Assembly (NCBI GenBank): GCA_038065675.1 | Contig: JBBTQM010000023.1 | Location: 1 to 46,698, forward strand | DNA: 46,698 nucleotides | Direction of reading: 5' to 3' | Source of the DNA: Patescibacteria group bacterium | Lineage (GTDB): Bacteria; Patescibacteriota; Minisyncoccia; Phycocordibacterales; VMEP01 | Shown: positions 3,660 through 46,634 of the stretch, piece by piece | Layout of the letters: each line of letters starts with the position of its first letter | How positions within the stretch are numbered: the stretch's first letter is position 1 | Position numbers and translations under genes: made by a program | Notes under the pieces: generated by a model | Databases searched by the model: none | What the model was told of the DNA's origin: nothing | Seen by the model: only the letters and a program-made list of their open reading frames with translations

Positions 3660-5354
3660 ATGTCCCTGCCGGTAAACGAAAAAGATGAAAAGAAACTGGA
3701 AGAGCTTTATCTGCGCGAAGAAGAAGAGCTTATAAAAAGCCTCTCGCCGCGCTACGGCATGCCGTATGCCGACCTTTCCGATGTCTCCATAGAAACGGAC
3801 GCTCTTAAATTAATCCCTGAAGAAGAAGCGCGAGCGCTTCTGATGGCGGCGTTTAAAGTCGTCGGACACAATCTTTACATAGGGCTCCTCTCCCCCAAAA
3901 AAGAAGGGGTGGAAGCCAAACTGGAAGAGCTCAAAGAAAAAAAATATGTCGTTTCTCCGTACTTAGTTTCAAAAGTAAGCCTTGAGCGCGCCTGGTCGCG
4001 ATATAAAGAAGTTTCGACTTCGGTAAAAACCAAATCCGGCATTTTGGACATATCCAAAGAAGACCTGGAAATCATGGCGGCTTCCCTTAAAACAGTCGCC
4101 CTCATAAAAGAATTCGCCGAGAAGACACTAAGGGAAAGCAAATTGCACAAAGTGACCAAAATGCTTGAAATAATTTTGGGCGGGGCGGTTGCGACCAACG
4201 CTTCCGATATCCATATTGAACCGGTGGAAAAAAGGGCTCGCTTGAGATTCCGAATAGACGGTGTCCTTGAAGATATTTTATTTTTTGACAACAACACCTA
4301 TAGTCTTTTGAGTTCACGCCTTAAACTTCTTTCGGAGCTTAAATTAAACATAAAAGAGTCCGCGCAGGACGGTCGCTTTAGCATAAAGCTGGGCGGCGAC
4401 GAAATTGAAGTCCGCGTGTCTTTCATCCCCGGAGGATACGGCGAATCAATCGTGCTCCGCATTTTAAATCCTAAAGCGATTCGCGTATCTTTTGATAATT
4501 TGGGAATAGCTCCTCATCTTCTCAAAATTCTTGAGCGTGAAATTTCAAAGCCGAACGGAATAATTCTCACCACCGGACCGACCGGTTCCGGAAAAACTAC
4601 AACCCTTTACGCTTTTTTGAAAAGGGTTTACACCCCCGACGTTAAAGTAATCACCGTGGAAGATCCGATTGAATATCACTTGGAAGGAATCACTCAGACT
4701 CAAATCGATGAAAAAAAGGGATATACCTTTCTTGAGGGACTTCGCGGAGCGCTGCGCCAAGACCCGGACATTATGATGGTCGGCGAAATAAGAGACGCCG
4801 AAACGGCAAAGACCGCCATCAACGCCGCCCTAACCGGACATCTCGTTTTCTCAACACTTCACACCAACAACGCTTCCGGCGCCATCCCCCGGCTCATAGA
4901 CCTAGACGTCAACCCGAAAATCATAAGTTCGGCGCTAAATGTCGCCATCGCCCAACGCTTGGTGAGAAAACTCTGCGAGAATTGCAAAAAAGAAAAAGTT
5001 CCTTCTTCCGATGAAATAAAAATAATAGAAGAAACCGTCGCGCGCATAAAAAGAGAAGGGGTTGATGCCGGAGTGCCTATTCCCTCGGCTCCCTACAAAA
5101 TTTTTGACGCCGTCGGGTGCGAAAAATGCAACAACACCGGATATAAGGGGCGTATCGGGGTTTTTGAAGCGATTCTTATGGACGAGGCGATTGAACGTTT
5201 GGTCGTCGGCAACCCGAGCGAGCACGAAATAAAAAAGGCGGCTCTGCCGCAGCAAATCCCCGACATGGCGGAGGATGGTATACTAAAAGTGCTTGGAGGG
5301 ATAACGACGATTGAAGAATTATCCCGCGTGGTTGAATTGACCGAAACCTTTTAA
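3660..5354 (+). CDS. pilB: Type II/IV secretion or type IV pilus assembly ATPase (GspE/PilB family)
   Basis: ASDIHIEP, GPTGSGKTTTLY, TVEDPIEY, LRQDPDIMMVGEIRD, TLHTN and CxxC...CxxC zinc motifs. Confidence 0.9.
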   Translation: MSLPVNEKDEKKLEELYLREEEELIKSLSPRYGMPYADLSDVSIETDALKLIPEEEARALLMAAFKVVGHNLYIGLLSPKKEGVEAKLEELKEKKYVVSPYLVSKVSLERAWSRYKEVSTSVKTKSGILDISKEDLEIMAASLKTVALIKEFAEKTLRESKLHKVTKMLEIILGGAVATNASDIHIEPVEKRARLRFRIDGVLEDILFFDNNTYSLLSSRLKLLSELKLNIKESAQDGRFSIKLGGDEIEVRVSFIPGGYGESIVLRILNPKAIRVSFDNLGIAPHLLKILEREISKPNGIILTTGPTGSGKTTTLYAFLKRVYTPDVKVITVEDPIEYHLEGITQTQIDEKKGYTFLEGLRGALRQDPDIMMVGEIRDAETAKTAINAALTGHLVFSTLHTNNASGAIPRLIDLDVNPKIISSALNVAIAQRLVRKLCENCKKEKVPSSDEIKIIEETVARIKREGVDAGVPIPSAPYKIFDAVGCEKCNNTGYKGRIGVFEAILMDEAIERLVVGNPSEHEIKKAALPQQIPDMAEDGILKVLGGITTIEELSRVVELTETF

Positions 5355-9721: not shown

Positions 9722-12244
9722 ATGCAGAGAGGAACATTTGGGCGCCCCGGAAAACACAAAAATACCATAGTTTTTGCCGCGAGCGTATGTCTTTTGGCGG
9801 GAGGCCTTGTTTTCTTATGGACAGGGTCCTTGAGGGTACCGGATTTGGGGTCTTTTGAGGGGCGTAGGGTTCTTAATTCGACAAAAATATATGATAGAAC
9901 CGGAAAAATTCTGCTTTATGACGTTCACAACAACATAAAAAGAACGGTAATCCCCCTCGAAGAAATGGGGTCCTCGGTGCAAAAAGCGACGGTTGCCATA
10001 GAAGACAGGGATTTTTACAAACATGGCGGCGTCCGCCTCACCTCAATAATCCGCGCCGTTATTGTAAATATTTTTAAGGGAAGTTTTTCACAGGGGGGTT
10101 CAACAATAACCCAGCAGGTTATTAAAAACGCCCTTCTTACGCAAGATAAAAAAGTTTCAAGAAAAATAAAAGAGTGGGTTCTTGCGGTAAAGCTTGAGCG
10201 CACAATGAGCAAGGACGATATTTTAGCCCTTTATTTAAACGAGGCTCCTTATGGCGGCAATATTTATGGCGTAAGCGAAGCCGCGCAGTTTTATTTTGGC
10301 AAAACCCCGAAAGAGCTTTCCGTCTCTGAGGCGGCGTATCTGGCCGCCTTGCCGAAAGCCCCAACATATTATTCGCCCTATGGAGAAAACCGGAAAGATC
10401 TTGATGCGCGGAAAAATCTTGTCCTTGAAAAAATGAAAGAGCTCGGTTTTATTACCGACAATGAATATAACAAATCAGTGAGGGAGGCTGTTGATTTCAT
10501 CCCCCGTGCAAGCGACAACTCTAAGGCCCTTCATTTTGTAATGTTTGTGAGAAAATATTTGGAAGAAAAATATGGGCGGGAGGCGGTTGAAAACGGCCTT
10601 AAGGTAACAACGACTCTTGATTATGATTTGCAAAAAATAGCAGAAGAAAAGGTCAAAAAATACGCCGAAGAAAACCAAACAAAATTTAACGCCAGCAACG
10701 CAAGCCTGGTCGCCATAGACCCCAAAACCGGACAAATTTTGGTTATGGTGGGTTCGCGCGACTATTTCAATAAAGACATTGACGGGAGTTTTAATGTGTC
10801 TTTGGCGCACCGCCAACCTGGTTCTGCTTTTAAGCCGATAGTTTACGCAACGGCGTTTATGAAGGGGTACACGCCGGAAACCGTTCTTTTCGACCTCCCT
10901 ACCGAATTCCAAACCACCTGCACTCCGGATGGAAAGCCAAAACCGGGAACGGACGAAAAAGATTGTTATATGCCTGAAAACTACGATGGAAAATATCGCG
11001 GGCCAATTAATTTAAGAAACGCGCTTGCTCAATCAATAAACATACCGGCAATCAAAACCCTTTACCTCGCCGGACTGGAAGATTCTCTTAAAACCGCGAG
11101 TTCTTTGGGAATTAAAAGTTTGGGGGATAAAAATAGGTATGGGCTTACCTTGGTTCTTGGCGGCGGAGAAGTGTCTCTTTTAGATTTAACTTCGGCATAT
11201 GGAGTTTTTGCCAATAATGGGGTACGTAACCCCCATGAAAAAATACTCAAAATAGAAGATTCTAAGGGGAATATTCTCGAGGAATGGAGACAAAAAGGAG
11301 AGAGAGTTATTCCCGAGAGCGTTGTTTTCCAAATAAACGACATTTTATCCGACAATATTGCCCGTGCGCCGACATTCGGGGACCGCTCCGCCCTTTATTT
11401 TCCCGGACGTGAGGTCGCCGTAAAAACGGGGACAACGAATGATTATAGGGATGCTTGGGTTTTGGGGTATACTCCGTCGCTTGTCGCCGGTGCTTGGGTT
11501 GGGAATAACGACAACACCCCGATGGAAAAAAAGGTTGCCGGTTTTATTGTCGCCCCCCTCTGGAATGAATTTATGAACGCGGCCCTCGCCCAAATACCCA
11601 AAGAAAATTTCGAAAGAACAAAAAAGGAGAATGATTTGACACTAAAACCAGTTTTAAGGGGGGTTTGGTGGGGTGGCGAAAGTTATATTATAGATAAAAT
11701 CTCCGGGAAACTTGCGACAGCGAACACCCCGAGGGAAACGATGGGCGAATTGGTAATTTCTAACCCTCACTCAATCCTTTATTGGGTTAATAAAAAAAAT
11801 CCGCTGGGCTCCCGACCGGACAATCCGGAAGAAGACCCCCAGTTTGATTTATGGGAATATCCAATATCTAAGTGGTTACTAAGCAACAAAGGGGCAATCC
11901 CGGGGGTTACCAAAGAAATTATTCCTTCTTTATATGACGACGTGCACACGGCGGAGTCCGCGCCCAAAATAACAATCATTGAGCCGTTGCCGGGAAGAAT
12001 GTTCCGTGTTGGCGATAATGTGCGGGTTGTATTAAAAAGCGACGGGAAATACCCGTTAGCCAGGGCCGACTTCTTCCTTAATAATAATCTGATAGGGTCT
12101 TCTTTTTCCCAAAATAATTTCTCGTTTACGGTAAACGAGTCGGCCTCTATTGAGGGGGAAAACGAACTTAAGGTTGTTGCTTATGATTCTGTTTATAATA
12201 ATTCACAAGAAGCGGTGGTTTTGTTGATAACTAATTCCAATTAA
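9722..12244 (+). CDS. Class A penicillin-binding protein (transglycosylase/transpeptidase) with C-terminal Ig-like domain
   Basis: EDRDFYKHGG, GGSTITQQVIKN, RKIKE, SAFK (SxxK), SIN (SxN) and KTGT motifs; start ATG 9722 or GTG 9704. Confidence 0.93.
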   Translation: MQRGTFGRPGKHKNTIVFAASVCLLAGGLVFLWTGSLRVPDLGSFEGRRVLNSTKIYDRTGKILLYDVHNNIKRTVIPLEEMGSSVQKATVAIEDRDFYKHGGVRLTSIIRAVIVNIFKGSFSQGGSTITQQVIKNALLTQDKKVSRKIKEWVLAVKLERTMSKDDILALYLNEAPYGGNIYGVSEAAQFYFGKTPKELSVSEAAYLAALPKAPTYYSPYGENRKDLDARKNLVLEKMKELGFITDNEYNKSVREAVDFIPRASDNSKALHFVMFVRKYLEEKYGREAVENGLKVTTTLDYDLQKIAEEKVKKYAEENQTKFNASNASLVAIDPKTGQILVMVGSRDYFNKDIDGSFNVSLAHRQPGSAFKPIVYATAFMKGYTPETVLFDLPTEFQTTCTPDGKPKPGTDEKDCYMPENYDGKYRGPINLRNALAQSINIPAIKTLYLAGLEDSLKTASSLGIKSLGDKNRYGLTLVLGGGEVSLLDLTSAYGVFANNGVRNPHEKILKIEDSKGNILEEWRQKGERVIPESVVFQINDILSDNIARAPTFGDRSALYFPGREVAVKTGTTNDYRDAWVLGYTPSLVAGAWVGNNDNTPMEKKVAGFIVAPLWNEFMNAALAQIPKENFERTKKENDLTLKPVLRGVWWGGESYIIDKISGKLATANTPRETMGELVISNPHSILYWVNKKNPLGSRPDNPEEDPQFDLWEYPISKWLLSNKGAIPGVTKEIIPSLYDDVHTAESAPKITIIEPLPGRMFRVGDNVRVVLKSDGKYPLARADFFLNNNLIGSSFSQNNFSFTVNESASIEGENELKVVAYDSVYNNSQEAVVLLITNSN

Positions 12245-39854: not shown

Positions 39855-40766
39855 ATGAGCAAGCTAAGTGACCTGAAACGCCAATTTCTGGAGCATATAG
39901 AAATCGAGCGCGGGCGCAGTTTAAAGACGGTCGAAAATTATAGCCGCTATCTGGATAGATTTTTGTCCTTTATAAAAAGTGACTCCCCCAGAGCCATAAC
40001 GGACAATTCTGTTCGTGAATACCGTCTTTGGTTAAATAGGCAACCAGGGAATGGCGGAGTCAACGAAACACTAAAGAAAAAGACCCAGAATTATCACCTT
40101 ATAGCCCTAAGAAGTTTCCTAAAATACTTGCGCAAGCGCGAAATAGACGCCCTTTCGCCGGAACGAATTGAACTGGCCAAAGTTTCCGAGCGCTCGCTTG
40201 ACCTCATAGAAGGAGACGAGCTTTCTCGGCTTTTGAGTTCCCCATCCGGGGATGACATAAAAAGCTTGCGGGATAAGGCGATTCTTGAGCTTTTTTTCTC
40301 AACCGGCCTCCGGGTATCCGAGTTATGCTCGCTTTCCCGAGATATTGATTTAAATAAAGATGAATTCTCAATTCGCGGCAAAGGAGAAAAGGTGCGGGTT
40401 GTTTTCCTTTCTTCCGCTTCAAAGGAGGCGCTCCGCGCTTATCTCGGTAAAAGAGTTGATGTTGATGACGCTTTGTTTGTTCAGCATAGTCCGTCCTCCA
40501 AATCAAAGGAAGATTTACGTCTTACTCCCCGTTCCATAGAGCGTATAGTCAGGCATTACGCCGCCAAAGCCGGAATATCAAGAAAGGTAACGCCGCATGT
40601 TATAAGACATAGTTTTGCCACCGATTTACTCCAGAATGGGGCGGATATCAGGAGCGTCCAGGTAATGCTGGGGCATGCCAATATTGCCACGACTCAGATT
40701 TATACGCATGTGACGGATAAACAGCTAAGGGACGTTCATAAAAAATTCCATAGCCGTAAAAAATAA
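39855..40766 (+). CDS. XerC/XerD-family tyrosine recombinase
   Basis: SAM-like N-domain; RDKAILELFFSTGLRVSEL, GKGEK, TPHVIRHSFATDLL, LGHANIATTQIYTH. Confidence 0.92.
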   Translation: MSKLSDLKRQFLEHIEIERGRSLKTVENYSRYLDRFLSFIKSDSPRAITDNSVREYRLWLNRQPGNGGVNETLKKKTQNYHLIALRSFLKYLRKREIDALSPERIELAKVSERSLDLIEGDELSRLLSSPSGDDIKSLRDKAILELFFSTGLRVSELCSLSRDIDLNKDEFSIRGKGEKVRVVFLSSASKEALRAYLGKRVDVDDALFVQHSPSSKSKEDLRLTPRSIERIVRHYAAKAGISRKVTPHVIRHSFATDLLQNGADIRSVQVMLGHANIATTQIYTHVTDKQLRDVHKKFHSRKK

Positions 40767-42133: not shown

Positions 42134-43603
42134 TTACTTGACCCAGTGCCGCTTTCTTATCTCGGCTACCTCTTTCGCCTCCTCTTCCTCTTTCTTCTCC
42201 TTTCCCCTCTCCCCGATGTCCTTTAGGGCCGTATCGGACATTTTAGATAACTCTAATGTCCTTTTATTTAAATATTCTTCTGTATTAAGATTAGGGTCTT
42301 CAAGGACATCTTCCAAAAGGGCGTGTAAAATCCAGCCAACACGCGGTCCCGGTGTTTCCCGTGTAACCTCCATTACCCCAGCCCCATCAATTTTAAGCAT
42401 TCCAACCGATACCGGTGCTCTCATTGCCTCTTCTATCATGGCTTCATATTTCCTTAACCTATAAGGCTTTTCCTTTGGCCTGCCCATGCCAATACGGTCA
42501 CAGGCACGTACTTTCATTAAATCCCAGACATTCTCCGGGCCAACGTTTTTCACAATTCTTCTAACTGCGGATAATGTTATTTTATCTATATCAGAAAAGA
42601 AAAGGTGGTAGCGAACAAGTTTTGAAACAGTATCAATTAGTTTCACGGGAAACTTAAGTCGCTCCATTATCTTTTTTGTTACACGTGAACCAACCACATC
42701 ATGTCCATAAAATGTGTAGTCTTTCTTTTCATCAGACCATCTTCGTGTTTCGGGCTTGGAAACATCATGAAACAGCGCGGCGAGTCTCACGTGTAACGGC
42801 CATTTATTATCAGCAGAATGCTGAAGTGCTCTTAAATTATGTTCCCAGACATCATAAATATGGTCGCCATTTTGTTTCACATGTAACCCTTTTTCTGTTT
42901 CAGGTGAAACGTATTTCAAGACGCCAAGTTTGTGCATCATAATAACGCCACTCATTGGTTTTTCAGCCATTACTATTTTCACGAACTCGTCCCTTATTCT
43001 TTCTTTAGAGATTGATTCAAGTGAATTAGCCTTATTTATCAATGCTTTTTCGGTGTTTTCCTCTATAGTGAAACCGGTTTCAGTTGCTATTCTTATTGCT
43101 CTTAGAATTCTTAAGGCGTCTTCGTCGAATCTTTCTTCCGGTTTTCCTACAGCACGTATAATTTTGTCCTTTATGTCCTTTTGTCCTTTATAAGGGTCAA
43201 CTATTTGTCCCTTAGATGGATCATAGGCAATAGCATTAACGGTGAAATCTCGCCGGTGTAAATCCTCTTCCAAGTTAGCGACAAATTTTACAGTATCCGG
43301 TCGTCTTTTGTCGGTGTACTTCCCTTCCGCGCGGTACGGGGTTACTTCCACGACCTTTAATGTTTCGTCTTCCGTTTTCTCATTAACCACGCCGACTGTT
43401 CCATAATCATTTTCGTAGAATGTATTTTCAAATAATTTTTGTATATCCTCCGGCAGTGCGTTGGTGGTTATGTCCCAATCATTCGGCTTCTTGTCGCAGA
43501 GAGCATCACGTATGCATCCGCCCACGACATACGCCTCAAACCCAGCCTTTTGAAGCCGTTCTGTTACCAACAGGACCTCTTTTGGTATGGCTAATTTAGT
43601 CAT
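42134..43603 (-). CDS. cca: CCA tRNA nucleotidyltransferase with HD domain
   Basis: VGGCIRD, DWDITT, RRDFTVNAIA, EDALRILRA, ERIRDEF, H.YDVWEH, LFHDVSKP. Confidence 0.9.
   Translation of the reverse strand: MTKLAIPKEVLLVTERLQKAGFEAYVVGGCIRDALCDKKPNDWDITTNALPEDIQKLFENTFYENDYGTVGVVNEKTEDETLKVVEVTPYRAEGKYTDKRRPDTVKFVANLEEDLHRRDFTVNAIAYDPSKGQIVDPYKGQKDIKDKIIRAVGKPEERFDEDALRILRAIRIATETGFTIEENTEKALINKANSLESISKERIRDEFVKIVMAEKPMSGVIMMHKLGVLKYVSPETEKGLHVKQNGDHIYDVWEHNLRALQHSADNKWPLHVRLAALFHDVSKPETRRWSDEKKDYTFYGHDVVGSRVTKKIMERLKFPVKLIDTVSKLVRYHLFFSDIDKITLSAVRRIVKNVGPENVWDLMKVRACDRIGMGRPKEKPYRLRKYEAMIEEAMRAPVSVGMLKIDGAGVMEVTRETPGPRVGWILHALLEDVLEDPNLNTEEYLNKRTLELSKMSDTALKDIGERGKEKKEEEEAKEVAEIRKRHWVK
42353..42911. 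promoter_or_regulatory. Cluster of six parS-like sites inside cca
   Basis: TGTTTCCCGTGTAACC 42353; AGTTTCACGGGAAACT 42639; TGTTACACGTGAACCA 42677; AGTCTCACGTGTAACG 42783; TGTTTCACATGTAACC 42873; TGTTTCAGGTGAAACG 42896. Confidence 0.7.
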
Positions 43604-43699
43604 TTTAGCGGAAATTTTAAGGGTTTATTAATTATTATTCTACATTATTTTTTGTTATTTCCCCAGCTAAACCGTATAATCGCAGTACGAGAGACATTT

Positions 43700-43771
43700 G
43701 CCCCTGTAGTGAAATGGATATCACGCGACGCCTCGAACGTTGTATTCCAGGTTCGAGTCCTGGCGGGGGCA
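43700..43771 (+). tRNA. tRNA-Arg(TCG)
   Basis: Cloverleaf with GCCCCTG/CGGGGGC acceptor, A20 in the D-loop, anticodon loop CCTCGAA and GGTTCGAGTCC T-arm; no encoded CCA. Confidence 0.88.
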
Positions 43772-43918
43772 TAGCGAAGCGGAGCCACCGCAGCGGCGCA
43801 ACTGCTTGCGCCGCGTCAGGACTCGAAAGCCGGAGTCATCCCGCTTTAGCGGGAGGCGAGGCGGGGTCGCGGCCTTTTGCGCAGGAAAAGAGCCGTGACC
43901 GAGTCCTGGCGGGGGCAT
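43772..43918 (+). repeat. tRNA-linked structured repeat (146-bp period) ending in a copy of the tRNA-Arg 3' end
   Basis: CGAGTCCTGGCGGGGGCAT at 43754 and 43900; antisense T-arm CAGGACTCGAA at 43817. Confidence 0.8.
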
Positions 43919-43922
43919 CAGA

Positions 43923-44024
43923 TAACTCACAACCTACAACTTACGACGAACAACTAATAAAAATACTTTTATTTTCCTCATTTTTCGTTTATATTATAGG
44001 TCGTAGGTTGTTAGTTGTTAGTTA
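43923..44024. repeat. Inverted heptamer-periodic arms between tRNA genes
   Basis: TAACTCA CAACCTA CAACTTA CGACGAA CAACTAA ... TAGGTCG TAGGTTG TTAGTTG TTAGTTA. Confidence 0.7.
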
Positions 44025-44029
44025 AAAAT

Positions 44030-44100
44030 GCGGGTATGGTTTAGTGGTAGAACACGTCCTTGCCAAGGATGAGACAGGAGTTCGATTCTCCTTACCCGCA
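44030..44100 (+). tRNA. tRNA-Gly(GCC)
   Basis: GCGGGTA/TACCCGC acceptor, CGTCC-TTGCCAA-GGATG anticodon arm, AGGAG-TTCGATT-CTCCT T-arm. Confidence 0.93.
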
Positions 44101-44251
44101 CAGGAGTTTTAAGCAGGCAAACTGCTTTGCCTGCGTGGAGAATCGAAAGGAGGAGCGGTGCCGAGCGAGTACGCGAGGCCGCGAGCCGGGGCTGCGACCG
44201 AGGCGAGCGACGGCGAGCCGAGAGTTGTAGCCGATTCTCCTTACCCGCACA
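44101..44251 (+). repeat. tRNA-linked structured repeat (149-bp period) ending in a copy of the tRNA-Gly 3' end
   Basis: CGATTCTCCTTACCCGCACA at 44083 and 44232; antisense T-arm GGAGAATCGAA at 44137. Confidence 0.8.
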
Positions 44252-44369
44252 TGATTTCAAGCAGGCAGATCATTCTCCGCGTTTCCACAAAATGTCTCTT
44301 ACAAAAGACAATAAAGAAAATTAAAATTGAATAGACAAATCGTAGAAATAAAGATTTATACGGCAAAAC

Positions 44370-44398
44370 TGTGGATAAACCTGTTCACATGTGTATAA
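44370..44398. promoter_or_regulatory. DnaA-box pair
   Basis: TGTGGATAA (44370-44378) and TGTGTATAA (44390-44398), both matching TTWTNCACA on the minus strand. Confidence 0.6.
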
Positions 44399-44527
44399 GG
44401 GACATAAACACAGATAAGATAAAAAGACACATTTAATGTCAGTAAATTAGTAATATATGGCTTTAAGTAAGGACATTTTAGTAAATTGTCCGTTTAAAAT
44501 CTTCTTTAAATCATAAAATCAACTTTT

Positions 44528-44543
44528 TGTTTCACGTGAAACA
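44528..44543. promoter_or_regulatory. parS (ParB binding site)
   Basis: Perfect TGTTTCACGTGAAACA inside a perfect 30-bp palindrome at 44521-44550. Confidence 0.88.
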
Positions 44544-44566
44544 AAAAGTTACCAAAGAAACATGTT

Positions 44567-44950
44567 ATGAATGATTTTTTGCGCCTAGGGAGGGGAGAGG
44601 TCGGACGTGTTGGGGAAGAAATTGCCTCAATTTTTCTTGAGAATAAAGGATTTTTTATTGTCGGGAGAAATTACAGAAAAAAGTGGGGAGAAATTGATAT
44701 TATCGCCAAAAAAGGGAACTCCATGCGTTTCGTTGAAGTTAAAACCATATCGTCTAGCGGAGATACTTCTTACATGCCGGAAGAAAATGTCCATTATAAT
44801 AAATTAAAACGTCTGACGAGAACGATTGAAACATTTTGCGCCGAGCGCAGTTTTTACGGAGATTGGCAGATTGATGTTATCGCAGTATTCCTTGATGTTA
44901 ATAAAAAAGAGGCGAAAGTTAGGTTTACGGAAAATGCCGCGGCGGGGTAG
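44567..44950 (+). CDS. yraN: YraN family endonuclease
   Basis: G..GEEIA..FL..KGF.IV.RNYRKKWGEIDIIA...FVEVKT...IDVIAV. Confidence 0.92.
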   Translation: MNDFLRLGRGEVGRVGEEIASIFLENKGFFIVGRNYRKKWGEIDIIAKKGNSMRFVEVKTISSSGDTSYMPEENVHYNKLKRLTRTIETFCAERSFYGDWQIDVIAVFLDVNKKEAKVRFTENAAAG

Positions 44951-45050
44951 GGGATAGTATTTATTTTATGGTAAAATCCCCCTTGTCTGCCGCCCTCCTG
45001 CCGGCAGGCAGGTAACGGTAGTATATATGCTTTGGGGTCGAGACTTTTGT

Positions 45051-45382
45051 CGGAGTGTAGTATAACGGTAACCCCAGTAGGAGAGCGAAGCTCCCTACGG
45101 GGTAAATATATCTGGTTTGGGGATATTTTTTTTCTCGGGGCGTAGTATACCGGTAGTATATCTGGTTTGGGACCAGACGGACCGGGTTCGATTCCCGGCG
45201 CCCCGAGAAAGAAAATATCCGGAAGTCTGGGGGACTTCCGTGGGAATTTCCATTAGAAATTCAGACGGTCCGAGTTCTAGTCACGCGTCATTTACTGCTG
45301 TAAATGCGCGCGACCCCGCCTCAGCACGTCTGCCTCCGGCCCTTGCACCTTGCGGGCACTCGGTGCAAGCTCGGCACCCCGA
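45051..45382 (+). pseudogene. Fragmented tRNA-Pro relic: 5' half 45051-45123, 3' half 45262-45382
   Basis: CGGAGTGTAGTATAACGGTA..[palindrome]..ATATATCTGGTTTGGG and CAGACGGTCCGAGTTC..[insert]..CTCGGCACCCCGA align with the intact tRNA-Pro nested between them. Confidence 0.6.
45136..45206 (+). tRNA. tRNA-Pro(TGG)
   Basis: CGGGGCG/CGCCCCG acceptor, TCTGG-TTTGGGA-CCAGA anticodon arm, CCGGG-TTCGATT-CCCGG T-arm. Confidence 0.92.
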
Positions 45383-45461
45383 TAATAATCTCGTATAAGA
45401 AGATACTTAAAAGTCTTTAAAATGTAGCATTTTTTGGCGGGAATCTCGCCCTTTCACTAAA

Positions 45462-46634
45462 TTACTGAGTACCTATGGCGTCAGTCATTATTTTGGTCAA
45501 TTTTTGCCGTACCCCTTCGTTAAATTCTTTGGCCAGAGTTTCAACCGGCGTATTTAGAAAACTGTCTATTTTTTTGCCGTTTTCCGTCTCAAACGCTTTT
45601 TTTATGTAAGACGTCGCTATAGCGTTTAATTCGCGTTCCCCGGTCGTTTTTGAGTCCGTGGCGGTTGTTATAACGCCGAGAAGTTTCCCCGATATCAGGC
45701 TTACGATTGCTCCCCCGGAAGCCCCTTTTTGCGAAATGATATTGCCTTGTACGGAAAATATATCCGTTGCCCCGACATCTTTGAAATAATAAAGTTTTTC
45801 TATATTTGAAACGCTTGAGGCAACCCAAAGATTGCGCTCAATGGTTATTCCGCCCAGAAATCCGGCGGGATATGCGGCGAGGAGAACCGGCATTCCGGCG
45901 ACAAAAGGATCATTCATTTCCATTTCTGCATAAGGAAAAGGCGAGGGGAGAGTTACGCCCTGCGTTATCATTCCGTTTATCCCGAGAAAAGCATAGTCAT
46001 TTTCTCCTGTTCCCAGTGGACTTTCCTCTTTTATTTTCGCGGCGTTTAGAGAAAGCCAGCTTTCCGGAACGTAAAGGAGCTCAAGAGTGTAAGCGGGGAT
46101 TGCCGGGCTCCCGGTGCGCCCCACGCAGGAAATAAAGTCTTTCATGTGGTAGTCCTTAAGCAAAAAATACTGGGCGATGTGGGCGTTGGTGAGGATAATT
46201 CCGGTGCCGCTTACAATTACCCCGCTTCCGGAAAACGGCTTCAAATAACCGTCCGTTTTGGTCGTGCAAAAAATATTTACAAGTTCGCCGCGAATTTTGT
46301 CGTTTTCGGCCGCCTCCGAAAGAATTTCGCCGCGTTCTATTTTTTGTATTGTTTCCAGCTTAAGCGGGGGATAGGAAGCGGTTTTAGCGGACGTTTTTTT
46401 CTTGGCCGGCGCTGTGGCAGAGGATGAAACCGGTTTGTTTTGCGGGCTTTTTTCCGTGCCGGTTGCCGTCTGAGTTTTTTGTTCCGGCTGTTTTACGGCA
46501 ATTTCTATTTTTTGGGATTCTGCCGGCGGGGGAATCGGCTTTTCGCTTGAGTAATTTACGCCAAAAAGCGCGCTTATGCCTACGACCGCGGGGATTACTA
46601 TTTTGGTCTTGATAAAGTATAGGAATGCCCCCAT
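45462..46634 (-). CDS. Membrane-anchored trypsin-like (S1) serine protease
   Basis: GSGVIV...ILTNAH (His), NDYAFL (Asp), KGASGG (Ser); N-terminal hydrophobic anchor and low-complexity linker. Confidence 0.82.
   Translation of the reverse strand: MGAFLYFIKTKIVIPAVVGISALFGVNYSSEKPIPPPAESQKIEIAVKQPEQKTQTATGTEKSPQNKPVSSSATAPAKKKTSAKTASYPPLKLETIQKIERGEILSEAAENDKIRGELVNIFCTTKTDGYLKPFSGSGVIVSGTGIILTNAHIAQYFLLKDYHMKDFISCVGRTGSPAIPAYTLELLYVPESWLSLNAAKIKEESPLGTGENDYAFLGINGMITQGVTLPSPFPYAEMEMNDPFVAGMPVLLAAYPAGFLGGITIERNLWVASSVSNIEKLYYFKDVGATDIFSVQGNIISQKGASGGAIVSLISGKLLGVITTATDSKTTGERELNAIATSYIKKAFETENGKKIDSFLNTPVETLAKEFNEGVRQKLTKIMTDAIGTQ

What the first reader, a model, noticed from the sequence alone, without database searches (positions are those of the whole stretch)
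43754..44270. tRNA-linked structured element whose arms match each host tRNA
Seen: tRNA-Arg and tRNA-Gly are each followed by a unit (146 and 149 bp period) with the same layout. It has a hairpin carrying AACTGCTT (GCGGCGC-AACTGCTT-GCGCCGC; GCAGGCA-AACTGCTT-TGCCTGC), then GT, then an exact 11-nt antisense copy of the host's own T-arm (CAGGACTCGAA; GGAGAATCGAA). A shared core follows (AG-GCCGGAG or GGAGGAG...GCGAG(G/C)CGGGG plus a stem), and the unit ends with a 19-20 nt direct copy of the host tRNA 3' end. The core stems covary and use G-U pairs (GTCGCGGC/GCCGTGAC; GCTGCGAC/GTTGTAGC), and the antisense arm can pair with the terminal copy to close a three-way junction. A truncated further unit appears to start at about 44252. 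Known: tRNA 3'-end repeats exist (E. coli tyrT) and integrase att sites duplicate tRNA 3' ends, but neither explains a shared scaffold with host-specific antisense arms. Inference: a small mobile or RNA-based element that targets T-arms and copies target sequence into itself, or a switch acting on pre-tRNA folding or 3' processing.
Basis: partly seen in the sequence, partly recalled or inferred. Interest (0 to 1): 0.85.

Follow-up and report, generated by a model that had tools for sequence, protein, structure and literature searches.

The report
Structured repeat lodged behind tRNA genes
Many tRNA genes of this tiny groundwater bacterium and its relatives are followed by an undescribed 85-150-base folded element whose closing stem is built from an inverted and a direct copy of that tRNA's own 3' end; it behaves like a new kind of small mobile repeat.

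Summary
tRNA-Arg and tRNA-Gly are each followed by hairpin, exact 11-nt antisense of tRNA positions 54-64, a shared core, and a 19-20-nt copy of the tRNA from C56 onward. The core with its arms folds as a three-way junction: 97% of cells paired and 28 of 29 pairs with compensatory changes in 46 copies, plus a conserved G.U. No Rfam family matches and six literature searches found no description.

A covariance model finds 16 strong copies in this 0.6-Mb genome. It hits 53 of 61 genomes of the same order (up to 53 per genome) but only 6 of 150 sampled across the phylum.

Of 116 copies examined, 83 lie just 3' of a same-strand tRNA or tmRNA. Others follow an sRNA terminator or the 3' ends of topA-like and rplL genes, always as gene end X, hairpin, antisense X, core, X again.

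Mobility is indicated by empty orthologous sites, nested and tandem copies, chimeric arms, a second core family with the same layout, and the patchy distribution. No reverse transcriptase, TnpB, IS110, Y1 transposase or extra integrase tracks it, so the mechanism is unknown. I infer template switching. Any RNA function is untested.

The parts
43652..43680 (+). Promoter-like site (TTGTTA-17-TATAAT) upstream of tRNA-Arg. No promoter- or terminator-like site lies between the tRNA and its unit.
   Evidence: consensus scan only
43699..43772 (+). tRNA-Arg(tcg), intact. Its positions 56-73 form copy X'.
43784..43790 (+). Degenerate antisense of the acceptor 3' strand (GCCACCG against an expected GCCCCCG). 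It has C, not the T of the tRNA 5' strand, at position 6.
   Evidence: read
43793..43814 (+). 7-bp hairpin with loop AACTGCTT, followed by GT. This module recurs in the family.
43817..43827 (+). Antisense arm, the exact reverse complement of tRNA-Arg positions 54-64. It forms the 5' strand of closing helix P1.
   Evidence: (I8)
43828..43899 (+). Type A core: A, then GCCGGAG, the P2 hairpin, GAGGCGGGG, the P3 hairpin (TCGCGGC...GCCGTGA with a G.U pair), then C.
   Evidence: R1 match 43817-43910, 88.8 bits
43900..43918 (+). Terminal direct copy X'' of tRNA-Arg from C56 to A73 plus 1 nt. It forms the 3' strand of P1, followed by a single-stranded tail.
   Evidence: (D9)
44030..44101 (+). tRNA-Gly(gcc), intact.
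44113..44134 (+). 7-bp hairpin with loop AACTGCTT, followed by GT.
44137..44147 (+). Antisense arm, the exact reverse complement of tRNA-Gly positions 54-64.
   Evidence: I1
44148..44231 (+). Type A core, long-P2/long-P3 variant. It is nearly identical to the core behind tRNA-Leu(caa) on contig C36.
   Evidence: R1 match 44137-44242, 71.3 bits
44232..44251 (+). Terminal direct copy of tRNA-Gly from C56 to 2 nt past the discriminator A73 (1 nt past ARAGORN's end).
   Evidence: (D6)
44255..44267 (+). Repeat of the spacer start, including the 5' half of the AACTGCTT hairpin stem. It is a remnant of a second tandem unit.
   Evidence: (D12)
45135..45207 (+). tRNA-Pro(tgg), intact.
45262..45279 (+). 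Partial tRNA-Pro duplicate covering the variable loop, the T-stem 5' strand and the start of the T loop. It is the left flank of the inverted unit.
   Evidence: read; the same layout lies behind tRNA-Pro(cgg) on C11
45269..45352 (-). Type A unit in inverted orientation, inserted in the T loop of the tRNA-Pro fragment. Its closing helix is the T stem itself (CCGAG/CTCGG).
   Evidence: 59 bits; I3
45371..45383 (+). T-stem 3' strand plus acceptor 3' strand of the tRNA-Pro fragment (CTCGGCACCCCGA). It is the right flank.
   Evidence: read

Best explanation
This is one family of small, non-coding, strongly folded insertion elements, here called type A. A second core, type B, has the same layout. 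The elements spread within and between Patescibacteria genomes and lodge at the 3' ends of genes. The usual site is between positions 55 and 56 of the T loop of tRNA and tmRNA genes.

Every insertion has the form: gene end X', then a hairpin (often the gene's own terminator), then the reverse complement of X, then the core, then X''. The gene upstream stays intact. The displaced or duplicated 3' end X'' remains downstream.

On the tRNA-sense strand the antisense arm pairs with X''. This closes a three-way junction whose other two helices and purine-rich joining strands (GNCGGAG and GAGNCGGGG) are conserved. That pairing also keeps the antisense arm from invading the tRNA's own T arm whenever the unit is transcribed by read-through from the tRNA promoter.

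Shown: the anatomy, the fold with covariation, the copy number, the linkage to tRNA 3' ends, presence/absence polymorphism, nesting, and patchy distribution.

Inferred, at about 35% within this reading: new copies arise without a dedicated enzyme. The nascent strand snaps back at the terminator palindrome and copies the tRNA 3' end backwards to the T loop. It then switches to another unit through the universal TCGAA/CGA T-loop microhomology, copies the core, and returns to the local template at C56. This would make the arm match the host automatically. Later template-switch or gene conversion would keep X', arm and X'' in step.

Not known: whether the fold acts as RNA or as single-stranded DNA, and whether it benefits the host.
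For: Fold:
- 26 of 29 pairs compensatory in 10 copies.
- 97% of cells paired, 28 of 29 pairs with double changes, 0 of 500 shuffles, in 46 copies.
- A G.U pair kept in 43 of 46 copies.

Numbers:
- 18 matches in the own genome, 16 of them strong.
- 53 of 61 genomes of the order have matches.
- In G006 there are 53 matches against 43 tRNAs. 25 of the 43 tRNAs carry at least one unit, and 13 copies lie far from any tRNA.

Linkage:
- 27 of the 30 best hits, and 83 of 116 hits overall, lie 3' of a same-strand tRNA or tmRNA.
- The arm matches at 10 or more of 11 positions in 47 of the 83.
- The direct repeat starts after TT (positions 54-55) in 32 of 50.

General rule seen at non-tRNA sites: tmRNA, an sRNA terminator, topA-like (62-nt repeat of the ORF end) and rplL (18-nt repeat including the stop codon).

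Mobility:
- G002 has tRNA-Arg and tRNA-Gly in synteny without units.
- At tRNA-Leu(caa), G006 has two units, G010 has one unit plus a remnant, and G008 has one unit with another nested in its P3. The same composite also lies at rplL and one further G006 site.
- The own Leu(caa) unit has the Gly-type core and a Gly-like arm.
- Near-consensus cores occur in different families.
- Only 6 of 150 genomes across the phylum have matches, yet 5 of those are in other classes, and 10 of 10 inspected there are tRNA-linked.

Second core with the same layout: 8 of 8 inspected.

Palindrome X'-terminator-rc(X):
- Perfect 20-nt antisense in G012 tRNA-Arg.
- The antisense abuts the T tract in Leu(caa) of G006 and G010 and in L035.
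- 31 of 60 spacers hold a terminator-like hairpin.

Concerted change of tRNA, arm and copy:
- G57 to A57 between G006 and G010.
- G59 to A59 between the window and G012.
- Where the copy and the tRNA differ, the arm follows the tRNA in 12 cases and the copy in 0, with 50 ties.
Against: - No enzyme or mechanism is shown, and the template-switch scheme is pure inference.
- A passive mechanism sits uneasily with the very precise 55|56 junction in dozens of different tRNAs. It also sits uneasily with near-identical 'master' cores in distant families, which suggest an active, sequence-specific agent.
- Strong conservation of unpaired purines across an order, and the strict same-strand orientation, would also fit a host-useful RNA.
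- The own Leu(gag) unit has an arm that follows its terminal copy, not the tRNA.
- Only 17 of 62 units keep the antisense acceptor part.
- No transcript evidence was obtained.
- The alignments used for counting were fitted to the model.
- Relatives are not independent samples.
Confidence: 0.5

Rival explanations
1. Host-useful cis-acting RNA module. The three-way junction is transcribed with the tRNA and serves tRNA biogenesis, for example as a 3'-processing or stability signal, a protein-binding platform, or a read-through insulator. It is inherited mostly vertically. The arm and copy are kept matched to the tRNA by gene conversion and selection.
For: - Conserved unpaired nucleotides and a conserved G.U pair.
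- Same-strand, just-downstream position in 83 of 116 copies.
- No promoter or terminator between tRNA-Arg and its unit.
- The same tRNAs recur among the best hits: Leu-caa and Val-tac in several families.
- Triple co-variation of tRNA, arm and copy at orthologous loci.
- Present in 53 of 61 genomes of the order.
Against: - Absent at orthologous tRNAs in G002.
- 8 of 61 genomes of the order and 144 of 150 across the phylum have none.
- Copies occur behind protein genes, nested in each other, inverted, and in tandem.
- 31 of 60 sit behind a terminator-like hairpin.
- A second, unrelated core uses the same layout.
- Terminal copies decay in their acceptor part.
Confidence: 0.22
2. Guide-bearing element of an unidentified trans-acting nuclease or recombinase. 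The arm and the terminal copy together specify both strands of the T-loop site, loosely like IS110 bridge RNA, TIGR tigRNA or TnpB reRNA. The core is the protein-binding scaffold. The enzyme is encoded elsewhere, possibly on a phage or plasmid missing from the bins.
For: - The conserved scaffold directly abuts an 18-20-nt target-derived segment at its 3' end and an antisense segment at its 5' end.
- The 55|56 junction is precise (32 of 50).
- Near-consensus cores occur across families and classes.
- The fold is strand-specific.
Against: - The two 'guides' are complementary to each other and paired in P1. Bridge RNA and tigRNA spacers are unpaired and address adjacent, not identical, positions (PMC12045711, passages read).
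- DEDD_Tnp_IS110, the TnpB zinc-ribbon domain and Nop were each found in 0 of 5 carrier genomes.
- Y1_Tnp does not track the element. 14 of 53 carriers lack it, and 4 of 8 non-carriers have it.
- There were no R1 matches in the 17 viral loci fetched by a narrow pattern.
Confidence: 0.13
3. The fold is used as single-stranded DNA, not RNA. On this reading the element is a peel-and-paste or integron-attC-like element. It is recognised on the lagging-strand template by an HUH or tyrosine enzyme, and RNA plays no part.
For: - G.T wobbles are tolerated in DNA hairpins.
- The structured strand is the tRNA-sense strand, which is the lagging-strand template for genes co-oriented with replication (established knowledge; not tested here).
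- Y1_Tnp-like ORFs exist in 43 of 61 genomes.
- Many units sit behind terminators.
Against: - Y1_Tnp does not correlate with the element.
- IS200/IS605 elements make no target duplication and need conserved hairpins at both ends. Here the left hairpin is variable and the target is duplicated.
- Each genome has a single Xer-like tyrosine recombinase, which is also present in non-carriers.
Confidence: 0.08
4. Remnants of classical integrase-mediated islands, with attL and attR repeats of the tRNA 3' end. Alternatively, a T-loop intron or split tRNA whose real 3' half is the terminal copy.
For: - A direct repeat running from the T loop to the tRNA end is the signature of T-loop-type tRNA integration sites (recalled from the literature on tRNA integration sublocations; the Dehalococcoides ssrA islands paper PMC3146451 was seen only in the search listing).
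- Exon-junction-like antisense resembles an internal guide sequence.
Against: - The 'island' is 85-150 nt with a conserved covarying fold and no ORF.
- The only tyrosine recombinase is one Xer-like gene per genome, also in non-carriers.
- More than 20 different tRNAs are occupied.
- The upstream tRNA is complete in every case checked, and terminal copies are often degenerate in the acceptor part, so they cannot be the working 3' half.
- Inverted copies exist.
- No intron family matched in Rfam.
Confidence: 0.04

Closest known systems
Genomic islands and prophages that integrate into the T loop or 3' end of tRNA and tmRNA genes and regenerate the gene (for example the Dehalococcoides ssrA islands, PMC3146451, seen in the search listing only)
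   Same: The insertion point is in the T loop. An intact gene is kept upstream. A direct repeat runs from the T loop to or beyond the gene end. Tandem arrays arise by repeated insertion.
   Different: No integrase and no cargo. The element is only 85-150 nt with a conserved covarying three-way junction. There is an extra inverted copy of the target. Dozens of different tRNAs are occupied by one scaffold. Protein-gene and terminator targets also occur.
E. coli tyrT 3' repeats: 178-bp units, each ending in the tRNA-Tyr 3' end (recalled; not seen in any call)
   Same: Tandem units behind a tRNA gene, each ending with a copy of the tRNA 3' end.
   Different: A single locus, no shared scaffold at other tRNAs, and no antisense arm. 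The tyrT units carry a small ORF (recalled).
Small structured bacterial repeats: REP/REPIN with RAYT, Rickettsia palindromic elements, Correia/NEMIS, BOX and ERIC (recalled; RPE mentioned in PMC1779305, listing only)
   Same: High-copy, non-coding, hairpin-forming and often co-transcribed with the upstream gene. Some insert into RNA or protein genes without destroying them. Presence is patchy.
   Different: Those have fixed terminal sequences and fixed short target duplications or none. Here the closing stem differs in every copy and is derived from the target, in both orientations. The Y1/RAYT-like genes do not track the element.
IS110/IS1111 bridge (seek) RNAs and TIGR-Tas tigRNAs (PMC12045711; abstract, discussion passages and section 9 read)
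   Same: A conserved RNA scaffold carries short segments that correspond to both strands of a DNA target. TIGR systems occur in parasitic (CPR) bacteria.
   Different: Their two guide segments are unpaired, lie in loops flanked by box C/D-like motifs, and address neighbouring positions. Here the two segments are mutually complementary and form helix P1. No IS110 or Nop protein was found in 5 of 5 carrier genomes searched. There are no arrays.
Inverted triplications, tandem-inversion duplications and quasipalindrome template switching (PMC4689423, PMC8604942, PMC7202029; titles and abstract starts seen in the listing)
   Same: The order X, rc(X), X with hairpins at the junctions. Homogenisation of inverted-repeat arms. 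An inverted-loop pseudo-anticodon arm upstream of tRNA-Met in this genome.
   Different: Those are sporadic rearrangements without a conserved inserted core. Here a specific, conserved, folded sequence always sits at the second junction.

Membership tests
Any Rfam 15 family | Match to a curated covariance model | tested here: not met
   At gathering thresholds only tRNAs were found. An E<=10 search of 43600-45500 with lax filters gave nothing over the units except chance-level rows of 12-19 bits.
Integrase-mobilised tRNA island (att remnant) | Direct repeat of the tRNA 3' end starting in the T loop | tested here: met
   (repeat starts after TT in 32 of 50)
Integrase-mobilised tRNA island (att remnant) | A cognate integrase, in cis or at least in the genome, whose presence tracks the element | tested here: not met
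   PF00589 gives mostly one Xer-like gene per genome (57 of 61 genomes; a few carry two or three), and it is present in all 8 genomes without the element.
MITE | Fixed terminal inverted repeats shared by all copies, and a fixed-length target duplication | tested here: not met
   The arms differ in every copy and match the local target. The direct repeat is 8-56 nt with a variable right edge.
IS200/IS605-derived element with TnpB reRNA / omega RNA | TnpB or IscB, or at least a Y1 transposase, co-occurring; no target duplication | tested here: not met
   PF07282 was found in 0 of 5 carriers. PF01797 is present in 43 of 61 genomes without correlation. Target duplication is present.
IS110 bridge RNA / TIGR-Tas | DEDD/RuvC-like recombinase or Nop-domain protein; unpaired dual guides | tested here: not met
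   PF01548 0 of 5 and PF01798 0 of 5. The two target-derived segments pair with each other.
Retroelement (SINE-like, group II intron, retron, DGR) | Reverse transcriptase in carrier genomes | tested here: not met
   RVT_1 was found in 23 of 61 genomes and in none of G000, G006, G008, G010 or G012, which hold 15-53 copies.
tRNA intron / split tRNA | The upstream tRNA is incomplete without the downstream piece, and the insert lies on the tRNA strand | tested here: not met
   ARAGORN finds complete tRNAs upstream. Terminal copies are often degenerate. Inverted copies exist.
Self-cleaving ribozyme | Site-specific self-scission | not testable with these tools
   There is no match to Rfam ribozyme models. 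By eye the junction strands lack the hammerhead CUGAUGA/GAAA pattern (recalled consensus).
Structured RNA (generic) | Compensatory base-pair changes on one strand | tested here: met
Structured RNA (generic) | Evidence of transcription | tested here: inconclusive
   No RNA run holds the stretch. Four RNA runs share only about 5% of the words, and one that was laid shows relatives' contigs over 44113-44193 only.

The most novel reading that the evidence does not exclude
The element may be a protein-independent or host-enzyme-driven, self-retargeting mobile RNA/DNA module. Its conserved three-way junction would actively promote insertion at a chosen point, mostly tRNA 55|56. It would also write the target's sequence into itself in both orientations, so that every new copy is automatically matched to its new host gene. 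That would be a new class of programmable, gene-preserving insertion element in ultra-small symbiotic bacteria. A bolder variant is that the paired arm/copy helix recognises double-stranded DNA of identical sequence by exchanging partners.
Probability: 0.3. Interest if true: 0.9.

Novelty: new variant of a known kind. Interest (0 to 1): 0.78.

Why it matters
If the reading holds, up to half of the tRNA genes in many Patescibacteria carry a previously unnoticed folded element. That matters in four ways.

1. Annotation. These repeats break assemblies and create pseudo-tRNA fragments.
2. tRNA biology in organisms with minimal genomes. Transcripts that read through would contain an antisense to the tRNA's own T arm, plus a built-in decoy for it.
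3. Mobile-element biology. This is a scaffold that ends up with target-matched arms at dozens of different sites without any recognisable transposase, integrase or reverse transcriptase.
4. RNA structure discovery. This is a well-supported three-way-junction family absent from Rfam.

It also offers a natural case for studying how inverted and direct target duplications arise at gene 3' ends.

Tried and rejected
Rfam: gathering and E<=10 searches found no family for the unit.

Enzymes sought and found not to track the element:
- RVT_1
- Phage_integrase
- TnpB zinc-ribbon domain
- Y1_Tnp
- DEDD_Tnp_IS110
- Nop

A LAGLIDADG ORF found at the tRNA-Leu(caa) locus of G012 looked like a candidate T-loop nuclease. 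It occurs in only 8 of 61 genomes, and the 55|56 junction there is inherited from the older unit. I rejected it as the general agent.

Viral contigs: a narrow pattern gave 17 loci with 0 R1 matches. This says little, because the pattern demands the consensus core.

Expression: no RNA run holds the stretch. The four RNA runs listed share about 5% of words, probably tRNA words. Laying X18 showed relatives' contigs over tRNA-Gly and 44113-44193 only, and the tool notes that this does not show transcription. I make no claim from it.

Ideas dropped after reading sequences:
- A kissing interaction between the AACTGCTT loop and the P3 loop CAGCAG. Copies with one usually lack the other.
- A k-turn in the P2 internal loop. 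The loop is 3+2 nt, not 5+2 (recalled consensus).
- Hammerhead, HDV or twister identity. There is no Rfam hit and the junction strands do not fit.
- The arm being a sense copy of the tRNA 5' strands. Two informative positions favour antisense: window 43789 and the L225 acceptor position 3.
- A tRNA-minihelix mimic as the selected feature. Only 17 of 62 units keep the acceptor antisense.

Which copy is the original (insertion at 55|56 bringing a new 3' end, or insertion after the gene) could not be settled. G002 flanks are too diverged.

Literature: six searches found no description of such an element.
Full report
WHAT IS THERE

The window is a whole 46.7-kb contig (C23) of a 600-kb, 39-contig genome. 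ARAGORN and Rfam place tRNA-Arg(tcg) at 43699-43772, tRNA-Gly(gcc) at 44030-44101 and tRNA-Pro(tgg) at 45135-45207.

Behind tRNA-Arg lie, in order:
- a spacer
- a 7-bp hairpin with loop AACTGCTT (43793-43814)
- GT
- the exact reverse complement of tRNA positions 54-64 (43817-43827)
- a 72-nt core (43828-43899)
- a 19-nt exact copy of the tRNA from C56 to one base past the discriminator (43900-43918)

tRNA-Gly has the same layout. Its hairpin is at 44113-44134, the arm at 44137-44147, the core at 44148-44231 and the copy at 44232-44251.

Two details need correcting. The third copy (45269-45352) is on the minus strand, inside the T loop of a partial tRNA-Pro duplicate. The 'further unit' at 44252 is only a short repeat of the spacer start.

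Logan contigs of two DNA runs reproduce the region.

THE FOLD

Ten own-genome copies align well. They give a consensus three-way junction made of:
- P1, the arm paired with the terminal copy
- a short joining strand
- P2, with GNC/GNC closing pairs, a GGA/GA internal loop and a variable hairpin
- GG
- a long P3, GGTCGCG...CGTGACC, stacked directly on P1

RNAalifold finds compensatory changes in 26 of 29 pairs. Seven single sequences fold this way with z-scores of -3.3 to -7.3.

On 46 copies from relatives, 97.0% of cells pair and 28 of 29 pairs show double changes. No shuffle out of 500 reaches the observed values, and slid structures pair at 37-50%. One G.U pair is kept in 43 of 46 copies. 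That alignment was fitted to the model, which favours the structure.

The wobble pairs make the fold specific to the tRNA-sense strand. That strand is either the RNA or the non-template DNA strand.

No Rfam family matches, even at E<=10.

HOW MANY AND WHERE

The covariance model R1 finds 18 matches in the own genome, 16 of them strong.

It matches 53 of 61 genomes sampled from the same order, including 12 of 12 in the same family. One search's stricter filters list up to 42 matches per genome. A dedicated search of G006 finds 53.

In G006, which has a 680-kb contig, there are 53 matches against 43 tRNAs. 25 tRNAs carry at least one unit downstream on the same strand. 13 matches lie more than 1 kb from any tRNA.

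Across the phylum the picture is patchy. Only 6 of 150 further genomes have matches. One is in the same order and five are in other classes. None of the five from other orders of the same class has one. Yet the copies in other classes are close to the consensus, and 10 of 10 inspected lie 16-56 nt behind a same-strand tRNA. Their terminal copies include the encoded CCA.

Named GenBank records that hold true matches (47 of 80 loci fetched by a core pattern) are labelled as follows:
- Patescibacteria
- Paceibacterota
- Kaiser-, Adler-, Nomura-, Yonath- and Zambryskibacteria
- Minisyncoccia
- Berkelbacteria
- 'Saccharibacteria' bins
- a few Elusimicrobia or Bdellovibrionales-labelled MAGs, whose labels may be unreliable

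THE RULE BEHIND THE ARMS

Of 116 matches examined with flanks, 83 have a same-strand tRNA or tmRNA ending within 450 nt upstream. In 47 of these the arm matches the reverse complement of the tRNA T region at 10-11 of 11 positions, and in 8 more at 9 of 11. Where a direct repeat of at least 9 nt exists, it starts right after T54-T55 in 32 of 50.

The remainder fall into three groups: second units of tandem arrays; a class whose arm is antisense to the last bases of the tRNA plus the trailer (..CAC|AAAT); and non-tRNA sites.

The non-tRNA sites obey the same rule:
- Behind tmRNA, the arm is antisense to the tmRNA T arm and acceptor.
- Behind a short terminator-ended transcript, the arm is antisense to the terminator tail. 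This occurs in G006 and in own contig C31.
- At the end of a topA-like ORF there is a 62-nt repeat of the ORF end, and the arm spans the repeat start by 2 nt.
- At the end of rplL there is an 18-nt repeat including the stop codon.

So the general form is: gene end X', hairpin, reverse complement of X, core, X''. The upstream gene is left intact.

The left edge of the repeat is sharp. The right edge varies from within the acceptor stem to 35 nt past the tRNA end by ARAGORN's coordinates, and it can include the whole terminator.

The antisense can cover all of 54-73. G012 tRNA-Arg has 20 of 20. It is often interrupted between positions 65 and 66 by an AGC-stem-loop-stem-GC-GT hairpin. In the own genome ten such hairpins with AACTGCTT-type loops exist, six of them directly 5' of R1 matches. 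Only 17 of 62 T-loop-class units still have the acceptor antisense, against 5 of 62 in a control region.

In 31 of 60 first units the spacer holds a terminator-like hairpin. Where it can be read, the antisense begins right after the T tract. So X', the terminator and the antisense form one long palindrome.

A SECOND CORE WITH THE SAME LAYOUT

The units behind two tRNA-Ser genes (C13, C25) have a different core, called type B here, between the same kind of arm and terminal copy. BLAST finds this core in 19 of 61 relatives, though some matches are partial. All 8 copies inspected lie behind same-strand tRNAs with matched arms. One has a complete antisense of 73-66, a hairpin, and the antisense of 65-54. 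The layout is therefore a property of the process, not of one core.

SIGNS OF MOBILITY AND TURNOVER

- G002 is in the same genus, with flanking genes about 75% identical. It has tRNA-Arg(tcg) and tRNA-Gly(gcc) in synteny with no unit.
- In a neighbouring genus the tRNA-Leu(caa) locus differs between genomes. G006 has two units. G010 has one plus a remnant of the second spacer. G008 has one unit with another unit nested in its P3.
- G012 has a different tRNA-Leu(caa) plus a LAGLIDADG ORF, followed by the stranded 56-73 remnant of the old tRNA.
- The nested composite recurs at rplL and at another G006 site.
- The own-genome unit behind tRNA-Leu(caa) has the tRNA-Gly-type core and a Gly-like arm, with a Leu terminal copy.
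- Orthologous units carry different P2 hairpins in G006 and G010.
- tRNA, arm and copy change together: G57/A57 between G006 and G010, and G59/A59 between the window and G012.
- Where the terminal copy differs from the tRNA within 56-64, the arm follows the tRNA in 12 cases, the copy in 0, with 50 ties. One unit excluded by that filter, own Leu-gag, follows its copy.

WHAT MOVES IT?

Nothing was found.
- RVT_1 occurs in 23 of 61 genomes and in none of five heavy carriers.
- Tyrosine recombinases amount mostly to a single Xer-like gene per genome, also present in all eight non-carriers.
- TnpB, IS110 and Nop domains were found in 0 of 5 carriers.
- Y1_Tnp-like ORFs occur in 43 of 61 genomes but are missing from 14 of 53 carriers and present in 4 of 8 non-carriers.
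- The LAGLIDADG gene is in 8 of 61 genomes.
- No match was found in 17 viral loci.

MOST LIKELY EXPLANATION

I read this as a family of small, folded, non-coding insertion elements that preserve the gene they land in (confidence 0.5).

How new copies are made is inferred from the X', hairpin, rc(X), core, X'' order. The order resembles inverted triplications and quasipalindrome template switching (PMC4689423, PMC8604942 and PMC7202029, seen only as listing entries). The proposed steps are:
1. Snap-back of a nascent strand at the terminator palindrome.
2. Backward copying to the T loop.
3. A switch into another unit through the TCGAA/CGA microhomology shared by all T loops.
4. Return to the local template at C56.

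This would explain several features: arms that match automatically, a sharp left edge and a loose right edge, terminators at the palindrome tip, and concerted change. It does not easily explain the near-identical 'master' cores in distant families. Those cores, with the conserved unpaired purines, leave room for three alternatives: an unidentified sequence-specific agent (0.13), a host-useful RNA (0.22), or an ssDNA-recognised element (0.08). Classical att remnants or introns are nearly excluded (0.04).

WHAT IT WOULD DO AS RNA (INFERENCE)

In the window a promoter-like site precedes tRNA-Arg, and nothing terminator-like separates the tRNA from the unit. The unit should therefore be on the pre-tRNA. 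The arm could then pair either with the tRNA's own T arm or with the terminal copy. The three-way junction with the copy is the stable outcome. It would neutralise the antisense.

The neighbouring gene on the minus strand (42134-43603) encodes a CCA-adding enzyme. This fits with tRNA genes here lacking CCA. No transcript data could be obtained.

COMPARISON AND NOVELTY

The element works partly like tRNA-targeting islands, with gene-preserving insertion in the T loop. It works partly like REP, RPE or Correia-type structured repeats. It fails the defining tests of each (see the membership table). It also fails those of MITEs, IS605/TnpB, IS110 or TIGR guides, retroelements and introns.

I found no description in six literature searches or in Rfam 15.

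I file it as a new variant of known kinds: a small structured repeat combined with a gene-regenerating tRNA insertion. I give a 0.3 chance that it is a categorically new, self-retargeting insertion system.

Noticed in passing
L192:1757-2326 (-) = G012:C2; also L195 (G001) and L196 (G018): A 190-aa LAGLIDADG-type ORF (PF14528, E=1.8e-8) directly follows tRNA-Leu(caa) in three genomes. In G012 the tRNA+ORF cassette has replaced the older tRNA and its unit, leaving the old 56-73 remnant and terminator downstream. This looks like a free-standing homing endonuclease travelling with its own resistant tRNA gene.
   Followed up: partly
G000:C13:2021-2110 and G000:C25:13723-13830 (L003, L006); L215-L225: A second structured core ('type B', AAGGTT...AACCTGTACTGA..TGTAAG..) with the same antisense-arm and terminal-copy layout sits behind tRNA genes. 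It gives BLAST matches in 19 of 61 relatives.
   Followed up: partly
window 44980-45012; G000:C13 about 2110-2140; G000:C25 about 11650-11700: A small GC-rich palindrome (CCTGCC(TGCC)GGCAGGCAGG and longer forms) recurs. Twice it is inserted inside terminal tRNA-Ser copies, and once it lies upstream of the tRNA-Pro fragments in the window. It may be another mini-repeat family.
   Followed up: no
window 45013-45134: Two or more partial copies of the tRNA-Pro 5' half lie upstream of tRNA-Pro. One (45050-45125) is interrupted after the D arm by a 33-nt hairpin (ACCCCAGTAGGAGAGCGAAGCTCCCTACGGGGT).
   Followed up: no
G000:C20 about 4420-4560 (minus strand), G000:C18:4270-4460, G000:C25:1850-1920, G000:C12:3550-3686, G000:C13:1730-1875: 5'-side analogues. 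A tRNA-Met 5' fragment is followed by an anticodon arm with inverted loop. There is a degenerate tandem tRNA-Ile pseudogene and a 38-nt tandem repeat before tRNA-Phe. Units upstream of tRNA-Asn and tRNA-Ser are built as 5' fragment, hairpin, core, antisense of the D-arm region, then the real tRNA. Roughly a third of tRNA genes in this genome are flanked by partial self-copies.
   Followed up: partly
G000:C15:6097-6771 and G000:C32:3306-3977: Two 223-224-aa IS200/RAYT-like Y1 (HUH) ORFs, each flanked by its own perfect palindrome. The C32 palindrome (CTCGACATATGTCGAGGTTTAGCC) also follows tRNA-Asn on C12. This is a REP/RAYT-like system unrelated to the unit.
   Followed up: partly
window 42134-43603 (-), 44567-44950 (+), about 40206-40721 (+): The tRNA cluster is flanked by a CCA-adding enzyme gene (PolyA_pol+HD) and interrupted by a UPF0102/YraN-type nuclease-fold gene. 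The genome's single Xer-like tyrosine recombinase lies 3 kb upstream. This synteny is kept in G002, G004 and G012.
   Followed up: partly
window 43924-43943 / 43997-44016: A 20-nt inverted repeat (85% complementary) brackets the AT-rich stretch between the Arg unit and tRNA-Gly. The meaning is unknown.
   Followed up: no
G000 contig ends: C4:76, C11:95, C25:151-380, C36:163-289, C30:335-447: Several contigs of the assembly begin or end within 100-450 nt of a unit or its AACTGCTT hairpin. This suggests that these repeats break short-read assemblies and that copy numbers are underestimates.
   Followed up: no
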